Below, one piece after another: positions 829 through 23,950 of a stretch of DNA of 64,000 bases; position 1 is the first letter of the stretch, and every line of letters begins with the position of its first letter. The DNA lies in the NCBI GenBank assembly GCA_964463925.1, contig CAYXDV010000001.1, forward strand, positions 12,276-76,275, given 5' to 3'. The notes beneath the pieces are model-generated. The model saw only the letters and a program-made list of their open reading frames with translations. It was not told the DNA's origin and ran no database searches. A program made the translations under genes and the position numbers. The stretch comes from an uncultured Gammaproteobacteria bacterium (GTDB taxonomy: Bacteria; Patescibacteriota; Microgenomatia; UBA12405).

Positions 829-878
829 TTTTAGTTAAATAAGTAACTTAATAGATTTGTTGTTAAAGTTCTGAGTCA

Positions 879-899
879 AAAAAACCCGCCAAAGCGGGG
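879..899 (-). terminator. rho-independent terminator for the minus strand
   Basis: Hairpin CCCGC-caaa-GCGGG followed on the minus strand by a U-run (plus-strand aaaaaa at 879-884). It lies downstream of the 1047-1613 gene and upstream of rplJ. Confidence 0.5.
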
Positions 900-1046
900 T
901 GAAACAAACACTATGTTGCTTACCTCGGTAGGATAATTAAATCAGTTGCCTGATCCCTACTGTCTTTGGTTAGGATAGAGGATTATAATTGGTTTTTTCA
1001 GAAAAGGCAAGAAGATTCTTCGAGATTTTGCCGCTTTTGTGTTAAT

Positions 1047-1613
1047 TTAAAAACCGTGGGAGATTTTCCACGCTTCGGTTTCTTGCTGCATTTTTAGAAC
1101 AGAATTTTGGTAGTCTTGATTCATTTGGTTGACGGAATTTTGATAATTCTGGTTCATTTGATTAACTCGGTTCTGATAATCCTGCTGGGATTTTTGAACT
1201 TGTTGGTTGTACCAGGTATTGTCGTAAGTAGGCCAGGGGACGGGTGTTGGATATTGGCGCGGTTTGCTAGTAGGATAGATATAATAATACTGATTGCTTT
1301 TGGGTGGGGTGTATTTTTTCTGTGGGTAAGCGGTTGGAATTTTGGTAGGCTGTGTTGTGGGGATAAAAGTGATCGGCGGGCTAGTTGGCAAGGGAGTAGC
1401 TAATTTGTTTAAGAAGGTTTGATAATCGTTTTTTTTGACTTCCAGCCAATAGCGAATAGGGAATAAGATTTTAGAAAATTGGTGTGCCCCTTTCCCGAGC
1501 CCAACTATGAGCGAAAGATCGGCTATTAATAAAAAAAGTAACAGGCTGAATATTTTTGAGGCACTGGAGTTAAGCATCTTTGGTAGAGAAAAGTGCTTCG
1601 GTATTAAAACCAA
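1047..1613 (-). CDS. hypothetical membrane-anchored Pro/Gln/Asn-rich protein with tandem QNYQNSVNQMNQ-type repeats
   Basis: One N-terminal TM segment, a Pro/Thr-rich linker and C-terminal imperfect tandem repeats (DNA repeats about 1100-1260). The start is uncertain because the ORF overlaps the LemA 3' end. Confidence 0.5.
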   Translation of the reverse strand: MVLIPKHFSLPKMLNSSASKIFSLLLFLLIADLSLIVGLGKGAHQFSKILFPIRYWLEVKKNDYQTFLNKLATPLPTSPPITFIPTTQPTKIPTAYPQKKYTPPKSNQYYYIYPTSKPRQYPTPVPWPTYDNTWYNQQVQKSQQDYQNRVNQMNQNYQNSVNQMNQDYQNSVLKMQQETEAWKISHGF

Positions 1614-2112
1614 AAATAGTCGCGGCCATTAGAGCTGGGAAGGTTTGGATGGAGTTGTTGTAATTTTGCACAGTTTGGTTGTAAGTTTCACGATAGTTAG
1701 CTATAGAATCTTCAGTTTCTTCTAATTGTTTTTGTAAGTCGAGATATCCTTGATTGGCTTGTAGTTTGGGATAAGATTCAACGACTACTGCTAAGGAGCG
1801 TAGAGTTTGAGTTAAGAAATTGTCGGCTTTGGCAGCTTCGGTAGCTGTGGTACTGGTATCGACCATGGATCTGGCTTTGGCTACTTGGGTGAAAGTTTTT
1901 TCTTCATGACTTGCATATTCTTTGACAAGTGAAGCCAACCTCTCAATTAGAGAAGTACGCCGTTTTAACTGGATTTCGATATCGGAAAAGTCAGTTTTAA
2001 CTTGGTTTTTTAGGACCACAAAATGATTGTAATGAGACCAAAGGAAAAATAAAATGAATAGGAAAATAACAAAAAGAGTAATGAGGACGTAGAAGAATAT
2101 GGTTAAGATCAT
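1570..2112 (-). CDS. lemA: LemA family protein
   Basis: N-terminal TM helix plus a LemA-like coiled domain (LKNQVKTDFSDIEIQLKRRTSLIERLASLVKEYASHE...). Confidence 0.8.
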   Translation of the reverse strand: MILTIFFYVLITLFVIFLFILFFLWSHYNHFVVLKNQVKTDFSDIEIQLKRRTSLIERLASLVKEYASHEEKTFTQVAKARSMVDTSTTATEAAKADNFLTQTLRSLAVVVESYPKLQANQGYLDLQKQLEETEDSIANYRETYNQTVQNYNNSIQTFPALMAATIFGFNTEALFSTKDA

Positions 2113-2161
2113 AAATTATTATAACCTATTTCAAACATGTTTTATAATGTATTTGCTATAA

Positions 2162-2701
2162 TTGCGGGTGAAAATATACGTAATAGGGATGAGTGCTTCT
2201 GGTAAGAGTACTATCTCATCTTTGATTGCAGTTCGCATGGATTTAAAGAGTGTTGATTTAGATAATATATTTTGGGACTTAAAAAATACGAGACCTGGAG
2301 GACAGGTGTTAAGAGACAAAAATGAAGTAGATGAAAAGTTGACATGTCTACTTAAAAAAGATCATTGGGTGGTAAATGGGATATATCTTGAGGATAGGAT
2401 CCTAAATGATGCAGACAAAATTGTTTTTTTGAAACAGAATGTTGTTAGAGCACTTCTTTGGCAGTGGAAGAGATATTTCCAAGATACCGTTCAAAGAGAA
2501 ATATATGGTTTTCGAAATAACCTTAATTTATCAAAAATTATATTAAGGCAACACCTAAATTCTGCACCCGACTTCGTCTTTGATTCATACAGATATGTGA
2601 CTGTAAAAAAAATGGAAAATTATCTAAAAGAAAATTATGGTTCGAAATTAATAGTGACTGAACCAAAAAATTACAAATATTTAATGAGATTATTGGTATA
2701 A
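2162..2701 (+). CDS. P-loop NTPase, adenylate/shikimate-kinase-like (AAA_18 type)
   Basis: Walker A motif IYVIGMSASGKST at the N-terminus; small 179-aa kinase fold. Confidence 0.6.
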   Translation: MRVKIYVIGMSASGKSTISSLIAVRMDLKSVDLDNIFWDLKNTRPGGQVLRDKNEVDEKLTCLLKKDHWVVNGIYLEDRILNDADKIVFLKQNVVRALLWQWKRYFQDTVQREIYGFRNNLNLSKIILRQHLNSAPDFVFDSYRYVTVKKMENYLKENYGSKLIVTEPKNYKYLMRLLV

Positions 2702-2708
2702 TTTAATT

Positions 2709-3296
2709 ATGAAGGTGTATTTTTCTGCATCTAGATTTTACCGTGACAAATATAGAGAAATTTATTTGACGATTGCTGATCAATTAAGAGAGCAAAAATA
2801 CGAGATATTAGATAGGGCGAATATCGACCCGGCGATCGATCCAAAAAAGGTATCAGAGAAAGAAAAAGTACAGTTGCACAAAGACTTTGTAAAAGCTCTC
2901 GATTCTTGTGACTTTTCTGTATTTGAGGCCAGCTATCCTTCAACCATCCACATAGGTCACGAGATTACATTGGCTATTCAAAAAGGCAAACCTGTGATTG
3001 TGTTGTATGGAGATACTGGAGATAAAGAGCCACTGATGTTTAAGGGTCTTGGTGGTGAAAAAGTCATTTGGGTGGAATATGGTGCATTTAACTTGAAGAC
3101 CAAATTGCAGAGAGCAATTGAAAAGGCAAAAAAAATGCAAGATGTAAGATTTAATTTTTTTATCAGCCCGCGCCAACTAGAATACCTTGATTGGTTATCA
3201 AAGAAAAAAATGATACCAAGAGCTGTCTTTTTGAGGGATTTAATTGAAAAAGAAATGAAAAGAGACAAAGACTACACTGAAAGCAAGGCAGATTGA
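2709..3296 (+). CDS. nucleoside 2-deoxyribosyltransferase-like (NDT/DNPH1-like Rossmannoid) domain fused to a C-terminal ribbon-helix-helix DNA-binding domain
   Basis: N-terminus KVYFSASRFY...SCDFSVFEASYPSTIHIGHEITLAIQKGKPVIVLY resembles the NDT/RCL fold motif. C-terminus RFNFFISPRQLEYLDWLSKKKMIPRAVFLRDLIEKE has a CopG/Arc-like beta-alpha-alpha pattern. Confidence 0.5.
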   Translation: MKVYFSASRFYRDKYREIYLTIADQLREQKYEILDRANIDPAIDPKKVSEKEKVQLHKDFVKALDSCDFSVFEASYPSTIHIGHEITLAIQKGKPVIVLYGDTGDKEPLMFKGLGGEKVIWVEYGAFNLKTKLQRAIEKAKKMQDVRFNFFISPRQLEYLDWLSKKKMIPRAVFLRDLIEKEMKRDKDYTESKAD

Positions 3297-4549
3297 GATT
3301 GTTTGATTTTTTGCCAGTGGCTTGACTGTCGACAAAGTAATTTAGAATCTGGTTTGTTGTGGAATAAACCCTTGGTAACTTCTTCTAAGAAAATAGTATT
3401 TTGAGAACCTTTGACCAGAATCACTGATTGCGCAAGATAGTTTGTGTTTTTCAACAAAAAGTCTAGAGCTTGTAAATTTTTATTAAATTTGTGGATTTTA
3501 GGATGAGCGGGGAAGTATTTCTGAGTCTCTGTACCAACTGTTATGATCAGATCGGCGTATTTTAGGGCAATTTTTGCCAATTGTTTGTGTTCTTCTTCGG
3601 ACTGTTGACCCAACTCGCGCATGTCACCCAGAACTGCAATACGTAAATTATTGGTTGACTGTTGGTGTAACAATGACAAAAACTCCAACGTAGGTTGAGG
3701 AGAGGAATTGTAGCTACTATCAATAATTTTGGAATTATAAAGGCCTTTAAAGTAGCTGGCCCTTCCGGGAGGTAAACTGAAATTTTTGGTTAAATTGGTT
3801 AGGATGATTTTGTCGGAAAGTCCAAAATACTTGGCTACAACGTAAGCAGTTCCAAAAGTGATTTCATAGATAGAAGGGAAGATATATTTTTTTTGTAGGG
3901 ATTTGGGGATAAATTTTGGTTGAATAGGAATTACTTGGCAAATTAACTTTGAAGAATAAGATTTAATAAATGGATCAGTTAAATTTAAAAAGGCAGTTTG
4001 TTTGGAAGATAGGGATTTGGCTAGAACTGAATGTTGTTGGCACATTAGCTTTTTGGCGTAATCAATTCGTTTTTGACCTGTTAGATTTGAAGGAATTAAA
4101 GGATCAAAATTTTGAGTATGAACTGTGCCGACATTTAAATGAATAGCCAGGTCCGGTTTAACAATTTTTAAAAGATAAGAAATATTATTTGGTTCAGTGG
4201 GGCCATCTACATCCATTTCAATTAGATAAATATCGGGAACTTGGTTATAAATAAGCAAACGGATTGGGGCCAGAAGAGACAGTTTTAGCCACTCTATGGG
4301 ATGGTAGGAATTTAATTTAAGCCCCAGCAAACTAGCAGGCAGGCCAAACTGGCTGTTGTAGTTTTGATTAGTTTTTACCTTAAAATTGGGTATTAGGGCA
4401 GCTTCAATGGCCTGAATAGCACTAGTTTTACCAGCTGAACCAGTAAGAGCTAGAACTTTAAAACTTTGCTTTTTCAGCTTGGCTAAAAGTCTTAGTTTAG
4501 CTAGTTGTAGCCGGCCCAGAATGCGCCAATAAAGCAGAAATAAGAGCAT
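3272..4549 (-). CDS. murF: Mur ligase family protein (MurF-like UDP-MurNAc-peptide ligase)
   Basis: Mur ligase P-loop VLALTGSAGKTS; three-domain length of 425 aa. Confidence 0.7.
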   Translation of the reverse strand: MLLFLLYWRILGRLQLAKLRLLAKLKKQSFKVLALTGSAGKTSAIQAIEAALIPNFKVKTNQNYNSQFGLPASLLGLKLNSYHPIEWLKLSLLAPIRLLIYNQVPDIYLIEMDVDGPTEPNNISYLLKIVKPDLAIHLNVGTVHTQNFDPLIPSNLTGQKRIDYAKKLMCQQHSVLAKSLSSKQTAFLNLTDPFIKSYSSKLICQVIPIQPKFIPKSLQKKYIFPSIYEITFGTAYVVAKYFGLSDKIILTNLTKNFSLPPGRASYFKGLYNSKIIDSSYNSSPQPTLEFLSLLHQQSTNNLRIAVLGDMRELGQQSEEEHKQLAKIALKYADLIITVGTETQKYFPAHPKIHKFNKNLQALDFLLKNTNYLAQSVILVKGSQNTIFLEEVTKGLFHNKPDSKLLCRQSSHWQKIKQSQSALLSV

Positions 4550-5562: not shown

Positions 5563-5988
5563 TTAATTAATAATTTCCAAACCCATACTTTTGGCAGTGC
5601 CGGCGACCATTTTTTTGGCGGCATCAATAGATTTGGTATTTAAGTCAACTAGTTTTTTGTTGGCAATATCAGTAATTTGGGCATCGGTGATTTTGCCGAT
5701 TTTTTCTCGTCCAGTAAGACCGGTACCTTTGGCAATACCCGTGGTCTTTTTAATCATGTCAGAAACTGGTGGTTGTTTTAAAATGAAGTCAAAACTGCGG
5801 TCTTCGTAAATAGTGATGATGGCAGGAATAATAGAGCCCGCCATAGCCTTGGTTTTATCATTAAACTCCTTACAGAAGTCCATGATTTTAATACCATGAG
5901 GACCAAGAGCAGTACCAACTGGAGGGGCGGGATTAGCTGTGCCAGCACCAATGGCTAGTTTGACAATAGCTTTTATTTTTTTTGGCAT
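5563..5988 (-). CDS. rplK: 50S ribosomal protein L11
   Basis: MPKKIKAIVKLAIGAGTANPAPPVGTALGPHGIKIMDFCKEFN... is the canonical L11 sequence. Confidence 0.95.
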   Translation of the reverse strand: MPKKIKAIVKLAIGAGTANPAPPVGTALGPHGIKIMDFCKEFNDKTKAMAGSIIPAIITIYEDRSFDFILKQPPVSDMIKKTTGIAKGTGLTGREKIGKITDAQITDIANKKLVDLNTKSIDAAKKMVAGTAKSMGLEIIN

Positions 5989-6059
5989 ATAAAAAGTTAA
6001 TTAAATTTGTTTAAAAATACGTGAGAAGCACACGCGTGGGGGTATTATAACAGAAAAGA

Positions 6060-6371
6060 TTACCAATGTATTTTTCTACCAGTTACGGGATTGCGAGAAA
6101 CTAAAGCTGAATGTATTATTTCTCCAGGATTACCGTCTGAGAAGATTACCCTGGCAACAGGATTTGTAATTAGCGGATGATAAATTTGCAGTTGAGGTTG
6201 CCAATTTCTTCTTTCTGGTGGCAGTTGGGCGCCATCTTTGTCTGGAGTCAGGTAGAACACGCTATTGAATGCCGTCCTAGTTCTGGGTTTAGGTAGATGT
6301 CTTTCAATTTTTTCTAAGGCTAAGTCAGATATTTCTACCCTCTCTCCATCTGATGTTTTTATAGTTGGCAT
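6060..6371 (-). CDS. hypothetical protein inserted between rplK and nusG
   Basis: 103-aa ORF on the same strand. Its start abuts the nusG stop (6371). No recognisable motif. Confidence 0.4.
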   Translation of the reverse strand: MPTIKTSDGERVEISDLALEKIERHLPKPRTRTAFNSVFYLTPDKDGAQLPPERRNWQPQLQIYHPLITNPVARVIFSDGNPGEIIHSALVSRNPVTGRKIHW

Positions 6372-6967
6372 TATACTTCTTTGGAAATCTGTAAGAAGTC
6401 GAGTTCAACTGGGGTTTCGCGTTCGAAGAAGGAAACTAGAACGTTGACTTTGCCTTTTTGATTGTCAATATTGTCTATAGTTCCAATAAAATCGGAGAAA
6501 GGACCATCGGTAATTTTAACCACATCGCCAATACTGTAGTTGGTTTGGAATTTTGGTTTGTCTTCGGTGGTGGCTGTAATTATCTGATCGACTTCAGCCT
6601 GGGAAATACGAGTAGGTTGTTTATTAACTCCAATAAAGCCAGTGACCCCAGGAGTTAATCTGACTGCCGACCAGGAATCGTCTTCTAGCAACATGTGGAT
6701 TAGAATATAGCCGGGTAAAACCTTTTCCTGGGCTTCCATTTTTTCGCCACGGCGAATAATCATTTTCTTTTGCAGGGGGATTATAGCTTCATATATTTTA
6801 TCCTCTACACCAAGAGATCGCATACGAGTTTTTAAGGCCTCGATTACTTTGTATTCGTGACCAGAGCTGGTATTAACCACATACCAAGCTGAACCAAAGG
6901 AGGGTAAACTATCGGATAATTGAAAACGAAATTGCTTCATTTTGGTGATAGTAGAGCTATTGGTCAT
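6371..6967 (-). CDS. nusG: transcription termination/antitermination factor NusG
   Basis: NGN and KOW domains (WYVVNTSSGHEYKV..., ...GDVVKITDGPFSDFIGTIDNID). The alternative start at 6940 is equally plausible. Confidence 0.9.
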   Translation of the reverse strand: MTNSSTITKMKQFRFQLSDSLPSFGSAWYVVNTSSGHEYKVIEALKTRMRSLGVEDKIYEAIIPLQKKMIIRRGEKMEAQEKVLPGYILIHMLLEDDSWSAVRLTPGVTGFIGVNKQPTRISQAEVDQIITATTEDKPKFQTNYSIGDVVKITDGPFSDFIGTIDNIDNQKGKVNVLVSFFERETPVELDFLQISKEV

Positions 6968-21496: not shown

Positions 21497-21520
21497 TGCC
21501 CCCGCCACGGCGGGGGATTT
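21497..21520 (+). terminator. GC hairpin plus T-run, plus-strand orientation
   Basis: CCCCCGCC-acg-GCGGGGG followed by ATTTTATTT. Confidence 0.4.
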
Positions 21521-21975
21521 TATTTAGATAGAAAATTTACTACTTCTGAGGGACTAAGAACTTTGATTTGTCTTAACCTTAGGCTAAAGAATGGATCCAT
21601 ATCTAGTGATTTATCTGGGGGAAAACGGGCAAAAATTGGCTTAGATTGAGCCAGGGCAAACCCAATTTCCAAACAAGTAGATGGACCAATATAGCCAGAG
21701 GGATTTTCCAAATATAGAAAGTTGCTTTGTCGCAGAGCACTTAAAAATCGATCTTCTATTTGTTTTGGATTTAGACCAATCTCATTAGGAAGTGGTCGAA
21801 AAACATCAGGGTTATAGTCTGGACTAAGCCTTAGCACTCGTGGCTTTGCCAGCCAGCCAAGTGCAGGTTCTAGAACTGTTACTCCAAGATGTTTATATTC
21901 TATAATTGTTTGGTCAATCTCTGGTTTGTATTTGGAAAAACTGCCAGAGATACAGCAGAATAACTGTTCAAACAT
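21520..21975 (-). CDS. nucleoside 2-deoxyribosyltransferase-like family protein (second copy in the window)
   Basis: ...NPSGYIGPSTCLEIGFALAQSKPIFARF resembles the NDT/DNPH1 motif (x-G-x-x-E-x-G-x-A-x-x-x-x-K-P). Confidence 0.5.
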   Translation of the reverse strand: MFEQLFCCISGSFSKYKPEIDQTIIEYKHLGVTVLEPALGWLAKPRVLRLSPDYNPDVFRPLPNEIGLNPKQIEDRFLSALRQSNFLYLENPSGYIGPSTCLEIGFALAQSKPIFARFPPDKSLDMDPFFSLRLRQIKVLSPSEVVNFLSK

Positions 21976-22447: not shown

Positions 22448-22448
22448 G

Positions 22449-22519
22449 CAGGCCTGCTAGGATTCGAACCTAGAAGAGCGGTTTTGGAGACCGCCATGAT
22501 ACCATTTCATCACAGACCT
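22449..22519 (-). tRNA. tRNA-Trp (anticodon CCA)
   Basis: Minus strand AGGTCTG...GGCGGT-CT-CCA-AA-ACCGCT...GGTTCGAATCC...CAGGCCT-G folds as a cloverleaf with anticodon CCA and a TpsiC loop. Confidence 0.85.
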
Positions 22520-22529
22520 AGGAGAGATG

Positions 22530-22602
22530 TGGACCTGAGGGGACTTGAACCCCTGACCTTCCCCATGCCATGGGGACGCGCTACCAACTACGCTACAGGC
22601 CC
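22530..22602 (-). tRNA. tRNA-Ala (anticodon GGC)
   Basis: GGGCCTGTAGCGTAGTTGGTAGCGCG-TCCCC-ATGGCAT-GGGGA...GGTTCAAGTCC...CAGGTCC-A, with the G3:U70 Ala identity pair present. Confidence 0.85.
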
Positions 22603-22656
22603 AGATGGGCTAGTATAGCAAATATGGGTATATAGACAAATGATTTAGAATTAGAA

Positions 22657-23145
22657 ATGCTAAAAATAAAAAGACCAAACTGGGACGAATACTTCTTACA
22701 ACTTACAGGTTCTGTTGCTGCTAGAAGTACATGTGACAGAGGGAGATCGGGGGCTGTGGCAGTCAAGGACAAACAGATTTTGACGACCGGGTACGTTGGA
22801 GCGCCTGTGAGTATGCCTCATTGTGATGATGTGGGACATCAAATTAAAAAGATGGTTCATGAAGACGGTAGGGTTAGCGAGCATTGTGTTAGAACTGTAC
22901 ATGCAGAGCAAAATCTGATTTGTCAGGCAGCAAAAAATGGAGTTAGTTTAAACGGAGCAACGGTGTATTGCAGGATGACACCGTGTAGGGTTTGTGCAAT
23001 GCTTTTGATTAATTCTGGTATCAAAAGAGTAGTATGTCAGTACAAGTACCACGAGGGTATGGAAAGCGAAGACATATTTAAACAGGCAGGAATTGATCTT
23101 ATTTTTCAAAATAACGAAATTTTGGACTACAAAAAGCAAAAATAA
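22657..23145 (+). CDS. dCMP/CMP deaminase (ComEB-like)
   Basis: Zinc-binding motifs HAEQNLI...PCRVCAML. Confidence 0.85.
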   Translation: MLKIKRPNWDEYFLQLTGSVAARSTCDRGRSGAVAVKDKQILTTGYVGAPVSMPHCDDVGHQIKKMVHEDGRVSEHCVRTVHAEQNLICQAAKNGVSLNGATVYCRMTPCRVCAMLLINSGIKRVVCQYKYHEGMESEDIFKQAGIDLIFQNNEILDYKKQK

Positions 23146-23290: not shown

Positions 23291-23701
23291 TCATATTAAT
23301 TCAATATTACCAAAATTTTGGGCTTTGCGAAAATACTTCTTGTCGCAGGTTAGCAGTGTGGCTGAGAGTACTTTGGCCAAGTAGTGATAACTGGTGTCAT
23401 AAATACTGGTTTTTTGATGATGGGCGAGCTCTAGGATTTTTTGGTAGTCGCGAGGTTGAAGGCTATGTATTTCAAGTGGCAGGTTCAGACATTGACTTAA
23501 TAGCTCCTGAGCGCGAGATAGAGAGAAGTAGGAAAAATTTAGGCCATTAGTTAACTGAGTATAAAATAGAGGAAGGGTATATAACTTGATAACTTGTTTT
23601 TGATTATTTTCAACTAATTCAATTAATTTGTGAGTAAGATCAGCCTTTTGTTTACTTAGGGCCTGAAGGACGAAAGTAGCTGGTAAAACATAGGCAAACA
23701 T
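23291..23701 (-). CDS. vapC: PIN-domain toxin (VapC)
   Basis: PIN acidic residues in ...IYDTSYHYLAKVLSATLLTCDKKYF; 136 aa. It is 3 nt downstream of a small RHH gene. Confidence 0.7.
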   Translation of the reverse strand: MFAYVLPATFVLQALSKQKADLTHKLIELVENNQKQVIKLYTLPLFYTQLTNGLNFSYFSLSRAQELLSQCLNLPLEIHSLQPRDYQKILELAHHQKTSIYDTSYHYLAKVLSATLLTCDKKYFRKAQNFGNIELI

Positions 23702-23704
23702 AAT

Positions 23705-23950
23705 TTAGTGTTCTTTATTTAAAGCTTTTAACATATTTTTGTAGCCGGATTTAGGAGTTGAGTTAGATTTTAGATAATCAAGAAGAGTGCTGGTGGGGTC
23801 TAGATTGGGGATAGTCAGAAGATCGTTTTGGGCCAAAGAAGCGAAATATTGACTAATCATACCTTTGTGGATTTTTAGATTGACTTTCTGCCACAGAGAA
23901 TATGGCAGACTAATGGTGAGTCGTTTAGTTTTTTGACTTAACATAATCAT
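23705..23950 (-). CDS. vapB: RHH-type antitoxin (VapB-like)
   Basis: RLTISLPYSLWQKVNLKI has a beta-strand-helix RHH pattern, immediately upstream of vapC. Confidence 0.55.
   Translation of the reverse strand: MIMLSQKTKRLTISLPYSLWQKVNLKIHKGMISQYFASLAQNDLLTIPNLDPTSTLLDYLKSNSTPKSGYKNMLKALNKEH

What the first reader, a model, noticed from the sequence alone, without database searches (positions are those of the whole stretch)
2162..3296. Nucleoside-2-deoxyribosyltransferase-like domain fused to a ribbon-helix-helix DNA-binding domain, next to a P-loop kinase
NDT/DNPH1-like Rossmannoid domains are nucleotide- or nucleoside-binding or hydrolysing modules, and related folds act as sensor or effector domains in nucleotide-centric conflict systems. 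Fusion to an RHH suggests a nucleotide-responsive transcription factor or an antitoxin-like regulator. The upstream P-loop kinase could make or consume its ligand. A second stand-alone NDT-like protein is at 21520-21975.
Basis: inference. Interest (0 to 1): 0.55.

Follow-up and report, generated by a model that had tools for sequence, protein, structure and literature searches.

The report
DNPH1-like domain fused to RHH regulator
A 195-residue protein of an uncultured Microgenomates (CPR) bacterium joins a domain resembling the nucleotide-cleaving enzyme DNPH1 to a ribbon-helix-helix DNA-binding tail. It belongs to a large, unstudied, lineage-specific family that most likely works as nucleotide-sensing gene regulators, which is a new combination of known parts rather than a new principle.

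Summary
ORF 2709-3296(+) has an N-terminal DNPH1/Rcl-like (NDT superfamily) domain: family profile vs PDB E=1e-12, and Foldseek's top hits are DNPH1, BcmB and MilB. Its C-terminal ~45 residues are a ribbon-helix-helix: profile hits to VapB-type, CopG and NikR proteins, E=6e-4 to 3e-2. ORF 2162/2168-2701(+) is a P-loop kinase seven bases upstream.

The fusion defines a family of at least 218 clusters at 50% identity, present in 234 species genomes, essentially all Microgenomates. It is absent from the phage, plasmid and viral collections and is not annotated as a fusion.

- **RHH conservation:** the RHH is far better conserved than the enzyme-like domain (59% vs 32% pairwise identity; R147, F148 and R176 invariant).
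- **Catalytic residues:** the nucleophile Glu is lost in 30 of 115 members, and the DNPH1 Asp80 equivalent is always hydrophobic.
- **Family organisation:** paralogs form tandem arrays, and two rare relatives carry a weakly matched HTH-like segment and no RHH.

This favours a ligand-sensing RHH regulator, possibly still catalytic in the window's clade.

The kinase pairing is conserved only in the window's clade (13 other loci). Other clades have methyltransferases, radical SAM enzymes, PfkB or other genes upstream. No operator motif was found. The toxin-antitoxin or defence reading is not supported. The "second NDT-like" ORF lies on the minus strand and is only weakly supported.

The parts
2143..2162 (+). 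Two TATAAT boxes (2143-2148 and 2157-2162) in the 55-nt divergent gap between the lemA start (2112) and the kinase start. This is the putative promoter of the kinase/NDT-RHH pair, giving a short or absent leader. An 8-bp palindrome AACATGTT lies at 2134-2141.
   Evidence: Read from the sequence. Orthologous kinase genes also carry a (TG)nTATAAT box 5-15 nt before their start. The consensus scan did not call a promoter here. Function is inferred.
2168..2701 (+). P-loop kinase-fold protein (177 aa from GTG 2168; 179 aa from TTG 2162). The Walker A motif GMSASGKST is at 2186-2212, and the conserved DLD..F.D motif includes D34 and D39 (2261-2278).
   Evidence: family alignment A3 starts at MKIxIIGP. 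NCBIfam 'DNA topology modulation protein' E=5e-13, far below its cut-off. 11 of 12 family members hit AAA_18. PDB profile hits to adenylate kinases 7/8/9, shikimate kinase and nicotinamide riboside kinase cover mainly the N-terminal P-loop part.
2709..3296 (+). The fusion protein, 195 aa: DNPH1-like domain plus RHH. It starts 7 nt after the kinase stop, and its 3' end overlaps the convergent Mur-ligase-like gene (3272-4549, minus strand) by 25 nt.
2709..3128 (+). DNPH1/Rcl-like (NDT superfamily) Rossmann-like domain, residues 1-140. Y4 (2718-2720) corresponds to human DNPH1 Tyr24. The motif FEASYPSTIHIGHE runs from F72 (2922) to E85 (2963). E85 (2961-2963) corresponds to the Glu104 nucleophile and S78 (2940-2942) to Ser98. 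F60 (2886-2888) occupies the Asp80 position and P108 (3030-3032) the Ser128' position.
   Evidence: Residue roles are taken from PMC10483697.
3141..3266 (+). Ribbon-helix-helix domain, residues 145-186. The strand is D145-VRFNFFIS-153 (R147 and N149 predicted to face the DNA), helix A is 154-167, the PR(A/S) turn is at 170-172, and helix B is 171-185.
   Evidence: (RHH-only PDB hits).
21520..21975 (-). Stand-alone 151-aa ORF that the finding calls NDT-like. It probably belongs to the NDT superfamily (motif GPSTCLEIGFALAQSKPIF), but support is weak and it is not a member of the fusion family.
   Evidence: PF05014 E=0.017. Only 4 homologs apart from the window's own sequence. No PDB sequence hit. 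AF2 pLDDT 65. Foldseek top hits are Rcl, DNPH1 and NDT at E about 7e-3 and probability 0.99. hhalign against A1 gives probability 3%.

Best explanation
The 195-aa protein is a one-component, ligand-sensing DNA-binding regulator. Two chains pair through the C-terminal ribbon-helix-helix, whose two-stranded sheet (R147 and N149) reads the DNA major groove. They probably also pair through the DNPH1-like domains, whose pocket in DNPH1 is built from two subunits.

The DNPH1-like pocket binds a nucleoside or nucleotide-type metabolite. The conserved elements are the Y4-E85 pair, the PST motif and E73. In the window's clade it may still cleave this ligand slowly, making the protein a 'trigger enzyme' in the sense of PutA.

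Ligand occupancy would change DNA binding. That would tune transcription of the two-gene unit it shares with the P-loop kinase, and perhaps of other salvage genes. The kinase would act on the same metabolite pool.

What is shown: the domain identities, the family's size and lineage restriction, the conservation pattern and the gene neighbourhoods. What is inferred: dimerisation, DNA binding, the ligand class and the regulatory logic.
For: - **Domains:** both are established.
- **Family:** ~190 aa with both domains in nearly all of the 150 best cluster representatives. 218 clusters at 50% identity score E<=1e-30, and 234 species genomes carry a relative.
- **RHH is the constrained part:** mean pairwise identity is 59% in the RHH against 32% in the N-domain, and the RHH is the more conserved in 98% of pairs. 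R147, F148 and R176 are invariant in 115 of 115 members.
- **Catalysis is dispensable:** the nucleophile Glu85 is replaced by L, I, V, F, W, M, C, Q or K in 30 of 115 members. This occurs in several clades, including loci that show only one copy in the fetched 10 kb. Tyr4 is kept in only 82 of 115. The DNPH1 Asp80 position is hydrophobic in all members (residue roles).
- **Paralog arrays:** tandem arrays of 2-4 copies exist, in which later copies change the predicted DNA-contact residue (RFN to RFT) and look like classical RHH (SRSEYIR). One family member, P0112, hits RHH_1 at 4e-6. This is the pattern expected of diversifying transcription factors.
- **HTH-like variants:** two rare relatives with the same FPSTLHIGHE-type domain lack the RHH and carry a helix-turn-helix-like segment (P0131 HTH_31 E=0.03; P0244 by sequence similarity to P0131 only).
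- **Operon signal:** the gene is co-directional with its upstream gene in 92 of 111 cases, with a median gap of 8.5 nt. The background in the same loci is 67% co-directional with a 24-nt median gap. The kinase-NDT-RHH pair persists in 13 other loci at 49-58% identity while the flanking genes change.
- **Neighbourhood:** more distant members sit next to ThyA, PfkB, AdoHcy hydrolase, a phosphoribosyltransferase, a YfbR-like HD nucleotidase, NUDIX and HAD phosphatases.
Against: - No shared operator was found. No k-mer, inverted dyad or direct dyad is significantly enriched upstream of the 90 transcription units that carry these genes, compared with 376 control upstream regions. The kinase-clade promoters share only a -10 box.
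- The invariant DNA-contact residues predict a conserved half-site, which should have been detectable if the protein autoregulates.
- In the window's own clade Y4, E73, H84 and E85 are all intact, so a plain enzymatic role is not excluded.
- The upstream partners are heterogeneous. Some (TadA-like deaminase, RecR) look like unrelated housekeeping genes, so part of the 'partner' pattern may simply reflect compact-genome synteny.
- The HTH assignment in P0131 is weak (E=0.03), and P0244 has no Pfam HTH hit.
- No experiment exists for any member.
Confidence: 0.45

Rival explanations
1. It is primarily a salvage enzyme: a (deoxy)nucleoside 5'-monophosphate N-glycosidase, or an N-deoxyribosyltransferase, of a bacterium that cannot make nucleotides de novo. 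The RHH would serve only as an obligate dimerisation or oligomerisation module, or as a non-specific tether to DNA. The kinase, HAD phosphatase, NUDIX and PfkB neighbours would be other steps of the same salvage route.
For: The window's clade keeps Tyr4, Glu85, Ser78 and Glu73. The closest solved relatives are all enzymes (DNPH1, BcmB, MilB). DNPH1's active site is built from two subunits, so an extra dimerising module would be useful. Several clades sit among nucleotide-metabolism genes. UniRef already names one member 'DNPH1' automatically. A Tupanvirus protein annotated as adenylate kinase contains an NDT-like domain.
Against: The Asp80 acid/base position is hydrophobic in every member. The Ser128' position is Pro, and the Arg30 position is not conserved. 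The nucleophile is lost in 30 of 115 members while the RHH stays invariant. A mere dimerisation module would not need invariant solvent-facing R147 and N149, and would not be conserved more strongly than the catalytic domain.
Confidence: 0.3
2. It is a DNA-directed enzyme. The RHH would place the N-glycosidase/transglycosylase-type domain on DNA, where it excises or exchanges a base. The variable upstream enzymes (methyltransferase, radical SAM, kinases) would make or process the modified base.
For: This rests on architecture only: a glycosidic-bond-cleaving fold joined to a DNA-binding domain, with variable small-molecule-modifying enzymes immediately upstream. The RHH is conserved unusually strongly and no promoter operator was found.
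Against: The closest relatives act on free mononucleotides, with the 3'-OH hydrogen-bonded to the nucleophile. The catalytic Glu has been lost repeatedly. No restriction-type, DpdA-type or other DNA-modification genes were seen in the neighbourhoods. The genes sit in core-genome positions.
Confidence: 0.07
3. It is the RHH antitoxin or regulator of a toxin-antitoxin or anti-phage 'nucleotide-centric conflict' module, with the upstream kinase as toxin or effector.
For: RHH domains are common in antitoxins, and the best PDB hit of the RHH profile is a VapB-type protein. NDT, TIR and SLOG folds occur in defence systems, and a few members hit ThsB_TIR weakly. The kinase gives a weak VakA hit in PADLOC (E=1.5e-3, P-loop region only).
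Against: There is no PADLOC hit for the fusion protein. The gene holds a conserved core position between ribosomal-protein operons or next to recR/cysS. Partners are ordinary metabolic-type enzymes, sometimes on the opposite strand. No copies occur in the phage, plasmid or IMG/VR collections. The family is present in 234 species genomes, which suggests vertical inheritance.
Confidence: 0.03

Closest known systems
DNPH1 / Rcl (2'-deoxynucleoside 5'-phosphate N-hydrolase; PDB 4fyh, 8qhq and others)
   Same: Same fold, and the best sequence and structure match. Shared motif ..(A/F)E(V/A)(T/S)xPS..G.GxE.., with the Tyr and the nucleophile Glu aligned.
   Different: The Asp80 acid/base is missing (hydrophobic). 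The Ser128' position is Pro. There is a one-residue insertion in the PST loop. The Glu is lost in a quarter of the family. The protein carries a C-terminal RHH that DNPH1 lacks. About 22% identity.
MilB / BcmB CMP N-glycosidases and Lactobacillus-type nucleoside 2-deoxyribosyltransferases (PF05014)
   Same: Same superfamily and overall fold. BcmB works in a pathway alongside a methyltransferase and a kinase (this is from my own knowledge of bacimethrin biosynthesis, not tested here).
   Different: Weaker matches than DNPH1 (profile E=0.18-0.6). No RHH. The window protein scores below the Pfam gathering threshold.
NikR (RHH plus ligand-binding domain regulator)
   Same: An RHH joined to a small-ligand-binding oligomerisation domain in one chain. 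NikR RHHs are among the best PDB hits of the C-terminal profile, strand included (IRFSISIP vs VRFNFFLS).
   Different: The domain order is reversed (RHH N-terminal in NikR). NikR's sensor is an ACT-like nickel site rather than a nucleotide-hydrolase fold.
PutA (an RHH-bearing 'trigger enzyme')
   Same: An enzyme and an RHH repressor in one polypeptide (established knowledge). This is the model for a catalytic regulator.
   Different: Unrelated enzyme domains, a far larger protein and an N-terminal RHH. No homology outside the RHH.
HicB-type antitoxins (N-terminal partner-binding domain plus C-terminal RHH)
   Same: Same domain order, with the RHH at the C-terminus. One family member hits HicB_lk_antitox weakly (E=8e-4).
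   Different: No HicA-like toxin nearby, a different N-domain and a core-genome context.

Membership tests
NDT / DNPH1 superfamily (PF05014 fold) | Significant profile and fold match over the whole domain | tested here: met
   Family profile vs PDB gives DNPH1/Rcl at E=1e-12 over residues 3-134. Foldseek probability 1.00, TMt about 0.8. 54 of 62 members hit PF05014.
NDT / DNPH1 superfamily (PF05014 fold) | The window protein alone reaches the Pfam gathering score | tested here: not met
   19.5 bits against a 28.8 cut-off, E=1.1e-3.
DNPH1 (catalytically competent dNMP N-hydrolase) | Nucleophile Glu (human Glu104) paired with Tyr (human Tyr24) | tested here: met
   E85 and Y4 align with them (roles). 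Across the family, E is present in 85 of 115 and Y in 82 of 115.
DNPH1 (catalytically competent dNMP N-hydrolase) | General acid/base Asp (human Asp80; Asp72 in Lactobacillus NDT) | tested here: not met
   The aligned position 60 is F in the window protein and L, V, M, I, F or A throughout the family. Neighbouring position 59 is not conserved.
DNPH1 (catalytically competent dNMP N-hydrolase) | 5'-phosphate site: the Ser98 hydroxyl, Ser128' of the partner subunit, and the backbone of Ile29-Gly31 | tested here: inconclusive
   The Ser98 equivalent S78 is kept in 109 of 115. The Ser128' position is Pro108 in 88 of 115. The loop SASRFY differs from GSIRGG. A backbone-mediated site cannot be judged from sequence.
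DNPH1 (catalytically competent dNMP N-hydrolase) | N-glycosidic bond hydrolysis of dNMPs | not testable with these tools
   Requires an enzyme assay.
Ribbon-helix-helix (CopG/Arc/MetJ/NikR) superfamily | A ~45-residue strand-helix-helix segment with a profile match to solved RHH proteins | tested here: met
   The ten best PDB hits of profile A2 are all RHH proteins, E=5.7e-4 to 0.15. The NikR alignments include the strand. The AF2 model has helices 154-167 and 171-185.
Ribbon-helix-helix (CopG/Arc/MetJ/NikR) superfamily | The window protein alone reaches a Pfam RHH gathering score | tested here: not met
   RHH_3 scores 15.0 bits against a 21.6 cut-off. One family member (P0112) hits RHH_1 at 4e-6.
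Ribbon-helix-helix (CopG/Arc/MetJ/NikR) superfamily | Intermolecular two-stranded sheet and sequence-specific DNA binding | not testable with these tools
   The monomer model leaves residues 145-153 unstructured, as expected for a monomer. No operator motif was detected.
Type II toxin-antitoxin or anti-phage defence module | An adjacent toxin or effector gene of a known family, in a variable or mobile genomic location | tested here: not met
   No PADLOC hit for the fusion. Partners are kinase, methyltransferase, radical SAM, PfkB and others. The position is conserved and core. The family is absent from the phage, plasmid and IMG/VR collections.
P-loop kinase (adenylate/shikimate/nucleoside kinase fold), FlaR-like | Walker A motif and family-level profile match | tested here: inconclusive
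   Walker A GMSASGKST is present. 11 of 12 relatives hit AAA_18. The NCBIfam FlaR 'DNA topology modulation protein' model gives E=5e-13 but only 49 bits against a 224 cut-off. PDB hits cover mainly the P-loop region. The substrate is unknown.

The most novel reading that the evidence does not exclude
The family is not a promoter-binding regulator. Instead it is a DNA-targeted N-glycosidase or transglycosylase system. The ultra-conserved RHH would dock the DNPH1-like domain on DNA to remove or swap bases. The variable upstream enzymes (SAM methyltransferases, MoaA-like radical SAM enzymes, kinases) would supply or process non-canonical bases, and the Glu-less paralogs would act as non-catalytic targeting subunits. 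That would amount to a new DNA-modification or repair chemistry specific to CPR bacteria.
Probability: 0.07. Interest if true: 0.85.

Novelty: new variant of a known kind. Interest (0 to 1): 0.5.

Why it matters
Microgenomates and other CPR bacteria have tiny genomes, cannot make nucleotides de novo, and have almost no characterised transcription factors. This family is large (at least 218 clusters at 50% identity), lineage-specific and multi-copy. It links a nucleotide-hydrolase fold to an unusually conserved DNA-binding domain. That makes it a concrete candidate for how these organisms sense and regulate scavenged nucleotide pools.

It would also add a new sensor fold to the set of one-component RHH regulators (NikR, MetJ, PutA). 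And it would show the DNPH1/NDT fold being re-used as a binding module after losing catalysis. Databases currently label members as 'hypothetical', 'nucleoside 2-deoxyribosyltransferase' or 'DNPH1', and none of the names returned here mentions the DNA-binding half.

Tried and rejected
- **Operator search.** I compared 7-10-mers in the 150 nt upstream of 90 NDT-RHH transcription units with 376 control upstream regions. The best result was GATATAA at p=1.4e-4, which is an extended -10 box and is not significant after multiple testing. Inverted and direct dyads of 4-6 nt with 0-12 nt spacers gave nothing. Inspection of the kinase-clade promoters showed only -10 boxes. The window's own palindrome AACATGTT (2134-2141) is not shared.
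- **Defence and TA libraries.** PADLOC gave nothing for the fusion protein.
- **Mobile elements.** tblastn against the phage and plasmid collections, and an IMG/VR scan, found no relatives.
- **NCBIfam.** No model matches the fusion protein.
- **C-terminal profile against the 5.8-billion-protein set.** Only 3 hits came back. At least one of them (P0121) clusters with a full-length 188-aa family member, so there is no evidence of a stand-alone form.
- **Second NDT-like ORF.** It could not be linked to the fusion family (hhalign probability 3%) and has no PDB sequence hit.
- **Literature.** No paper in the library describes an NDT/DNPH1-RHH fusion.
- **Tight coupling to the upstream gene.** I considered this as strong evidence for function. 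I downgraded it after the background check: other same-strand gene pairs in these compact genomes have a median gap of 24 nt.
Full report
**1. What is in the sequence**

The window is a piece of a low-GC (about 34-42%) Patescibacteria genome of the Microgenomates group. It carries secE-nusG-rplK-rplA and rplJ, with its L10 leader at 869-987, all on the minus strand. The closest relatives of the target protein come from Shapirobacteria, Woesebacteria and 'Microgenomates group' MAGs.

Between rplA and the rplJ leader lies an inserted block: lemA (1570-2112, minus strand), then two plus-strand ORFs, then a convergent Mur-ligase-like gene (3272-4549, minus strand).

The two plus-strand ORFs are the finding.
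- **Kinase ORF.** A 179-aa ORF runs from TTG 2162. The family alignment starts at 'MKIxIIGP', so it more probably starts at GTG 2168. Its Walker A motif GMSASGKST is at 2186-2212.
- **Fusion ORF.** Seven bases after the kinase stop, a 195-aa ORF runs 2709-3296.
- **Promoter.** Two TATAAT boxes (2143-2148 and 2157-2162) precede the pair. No terminator-like site lies between or after the two genes; the only one found is inside the kinase ORF on the minus strand.

**2. Domain identities**

*N-terminal domain.* Taken alone, the 195-aa protein gives only sub-threshold Pfam hits: PF05014 at E=1.1e-3 and RHH_3 at E=0.025. The family settles the question.
- A search of the 5.8-billion-protein set returned 199 relatives. 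Almost all are 186-199 aa and match over 92-99% of the query.
- 54 of 62 aligned members hit PF05014, best E=1.8e-9.
- The profile of alignment A1 hits rat and human DNPH1/Rcl at E=1e-12 to 6e-9 over residues 3-134. Classical NDT and MilB score far weaker, at E=0.18-0.6.
- An AlphaFold2 model (mean pLDDT 85) has DNPH1, BcmB and MilB as its best Foldseek matches in the PDB, with probability 1.00 and target-normalised TM 0.75-0.85.
- In BFVD it matches phage and giant-virus NDTs.

*C-terminal domain.* A profile of residues 141-188 from 35 diverse members (A2) finds only RHH proteins among its ten best PDB hits. These are the VapB-type chain 3h87_C (5.7e-4), a CopG-family regulator 7by2 (1.7e-3), P. 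horikoshii NikR (8e-3), and H. pylori and E. coli NikR. CopG itself and YiiF follow further down the list. The NikR alignments include the strand (IRFSISIP vs VRFNFFLS). The model shows the two helices, 154-167 and 171-185. The strand is unpaired in the monomer model, as expected for a fold that only forms in a dimer.

**3. Is the N-domain an enzyme?**

According to PMC10483697, human DNPH1 uses three catalytic residues. Glu104 is the nucleophile and forms a short hydrogen bond with Tyr24. Asp80 is the general acid/base. The 5'-phosphate is held by Ser98, Ser128' of the other subunit, and backbone amides of residues 29-31 and 100.

In the HMM alignment the window protein has:
- Y4 at the Tyr24 position;
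- E85 at the Glu104 position;
- S78 at the Ser98 position;
- F60 at the Asp80 position;
- P108 at the Ser128' position.

Across 115 distinct family members from 80 loci:
- position 60 is always hydrophobic;
- Glu85 is present in only 85, replaced elsewhere by L, I, V, F, W, M, C, Q or K;
- Tyr4 is present in only 82;
- E73 (113 of 115), S78 (109), G83 (114) and Y124 (115) are retained.

The Glu-less forms fall in several separate clades. Some occur in loci where only one copy is visible (L059, L063, L076, L083, L085, L088, L091).

So the family belongs to the DNPH1/NDT superfamily but is not an orthodox DNPH1. Catalysis, if any, is not the constraint that holds the family together. The window's own clade keeps Y4, E73, H84 and E85, so it may still be active.

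**4. The RHH is the constrained part**

Mean pairwise identity is 59% in the RHH and 32% in the N-domain, and the RHH is the more conserved half in 98% of pairs. R147, F148 and R176 are invariant, N149 is N or T, and the motif DVRFNFF(V/I)SP...YLDW..K....PR(S/A)V(F/Y)LR.LIE recurs at overall identities as low as 36%.

By the alternation rule for RHH strands (established knowledge of Arc, CopG and MetJ), R147 and N149 face the DNA.

In tandem paralog arrays of up to four copies (L077 4427-6746; L010 5001-7333), later copies switch to RFT(M/L)(I/L)L and to a classical '(S/N)RSEYIR' helix. They have often lost the Glu as well. This pattern looks like diversification of DNA specificity.

Two rare cluster representatives, P0131 (401 aa) and P0244 (291 aa), carry the same FPSTLHIGHE-type domain without the RHH. 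In its place is a segment resembling an XRE-type helix-turn-helix. The support is weak: HTH_31 at E=0.03 for P0131, and only sequence similarity to P0131 for P0244. If real, this is an independent link between this domain and DNA binding.

**5. Distribution and context**

*Distribution.*
- 234 of the GTDB species genomes scanned encode a relative.
- An exhaustive HMMER search of 1.84 billion cluster representatives gives 218 clusters at E<=1e-30 and 1055 at E<=1e-10. Nearly all of the best 150 are 184-206 aa and match end to end.
- There are no relatives in the phage, plasmid or IMG/VR collections.
- There is no PADLOC hit and no NCBIfam model.
- Only one copy lies in this 64-kb window.

*Synteny.* In Shapirobacteria- and Woesebacteria-like genomes the gene sits between rplJL and rplKA, near Mur-ligase and Ddl genes. 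In other Microgenomates it follows dnaX-ybaB-recR and precedes cysS.

*Upstream neighbour.* It is co-directional in 92 of 111 cases, with a median gap of 8.5 nt. The background for other gene pairs in the same loci is 67% co-directional and 24 nt, so the coupling is only modestly tighter than average.

The upstream partner is clade-specific:
- the FlaR-like P-loop kinase in the window's clade, present in the window and 13 other loci at 49-58% identity of the fusion protein, with gaps of 4-40 nt and changing outer flanks;
- a different AAA_33 kinase;
- several SAM methyltransferases;
- a MoaA-like radical SAM protein, either co-directional or divergent;
- PfkB, NUDIX, a TadA-like deaminase or RecR.

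HAD phosphatases, a YfbR-like HD nucleotidase, ThyA, AdoHcy hydrolase and a phosphoribosyltransferase occur nearby in some lineages.

The kinase link is therefore real within one clade but is not a property of the whole family. Part of the partner pattern may simply be inherited synteny.

**6. Mechanism**

The best reading (confidence about 0.45) is a one-component regulator, analogous to NikR, MetJ or PutA. It would be an RHH dimer whose DNA affinity is set by a nucleoside or nucleotide bound in the DNPH1-like pocket, and possibly slowly hydrolysed there. It would be co-transcribed with an enzyme acting on the same metabolite pool.

The main weakness is that I could not find an operator. Invariant contact residues predict a conserved half-site, so the target may lie elsewhere in the genome.

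The rivals are:
- a salvage enzyme that uses the RHH only to oligomerise (about 0.3);
- a DNA-directed glycosidase or base-exchange enzyme (about 0.07);
- a TA or defence module (about 0.03).

**7. The other claims in the finding**

The stand-alone 'NDT-like' ORF at 21520-21975 is on the minus strand. The evidence on it is as follows.
- It has only four homologs apart from the window's own sequence.
- It has no PDB sequence hit.
- Its AF2 model is poor (pLDDT 65).
- The model's best Foldseek hits are nevertheless all Rcl, DNPH1 and NDT, at E about 7e-3 and probability 0.99.
- It carries an NDT-like GPSTCLEIGFALAQSKPIF motif with an invariant Glu.

It is probably a distant member of the NDT superfamily. 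It is unrelated to the fusion family at sequence level. It lies about 700 nt from a dCMP-deaminase gene.

**8. Novelty**

No paper in the searchable library describes an NDT/DNPH1-RHH fusion. Database names for members are 'hypothetical protein', 'nucleoside 2-deoxyribosyltransferase' or, automatically, 'DNPH1'.

The parts are known, and so is the logic of ligand-binding domain plus RHH. What is new is the sensor fold, the C-terminal RHH subtype with its extreme conservation, the paralog arrays and the restriction to Microgenomates. I rate it a new variant of a known kind, with interest 0.5.

Noticed in passing
window 23291-23950 (minus strand): A PIN-domain protein (23291-23701; Pfam E=4e-5) is preceded by an 81-aa ORF (23705-23950) whose N-terminus, 'KRLTISLPYSLWQKV', looks RHH-like but has no Pfam hit. 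This is probably a VapBC-type toxin-antitoxin pair.
   Followed up: partly
window 22448-23145: A dCMP/cytidine deaminase gene (22657-23145, plus strand; E=1.5e-22) lies next to tRNA-Trp and tRNA-Ala, about 700 nt from the weak NDT-like ORF at 21520-21975 (minus strand).
   Followed up: partly
window 1-64000: GC skew on the plus strand is strongly positive (0.10-0.37) across almost the whole window, although genes are split 37 plus to 39 minus. Only 54-56 kb is negative, and it is also GC-richer at 0.458.
   Followed up: no
window 869-987 (minus strand): An L10 leader (RF00557, 57.7 bits) lies upstream of rplJ. The lemA / kinase / NDT-RHH / Mur-ligase block is inserted between rplKA and this leader.
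   Followed up: no
L077 4427-6746; L010 5001-7333; L027 3221-5570; L065 1924-5570: Tandem or clustered arrays of 3-4 diverged NDT-RHH paralogs. Later copies often lack the nucleophile Glu and have an RFT-type strand.
   Followed up: partly
P0131 (L095 1037-2242) and P0244 (L096 306-1181): Relatives in which the same NDT-like domain is combined with an XRE-type HTH-like segment and there is no RHH. P0131 has the order NDT-HTH-NDT. The HTH match is weak: HTH_31 E=0.03 for P0131, and no Pfam HTH hit for P0244.
   Followed up: partly
BFVD entry A0A6N1NX88 (Tupanvirus soda lake): A 602-aa protein annotated as adenylate kinase contains a domain matching the NDT-like model (E=1.1e-4). This is a possible kinase-NDT fusion that parallels the gene pair in the window.
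   Followed up: no
L041, L051, L053-L055, L059, L060, L063, L064, L069, L076, L083 (about 5570-6800): In the recR/cysS-type neighbourhood, the NDT-RHH gene is always followed by two conserved ORFs of about 70 and about 167 aa that have no Pfam or NCBIfam match.
   Followed up: no
window 3272-4549 (minus strand): The Mur-ligase-like gene (Mur_ligase_C E=2.9e-7) overlaps the 3' end of the fusion gene by 25 nt in convergent orientation. The same convergent arrangement recurs in many related loci.
   Followed up: no
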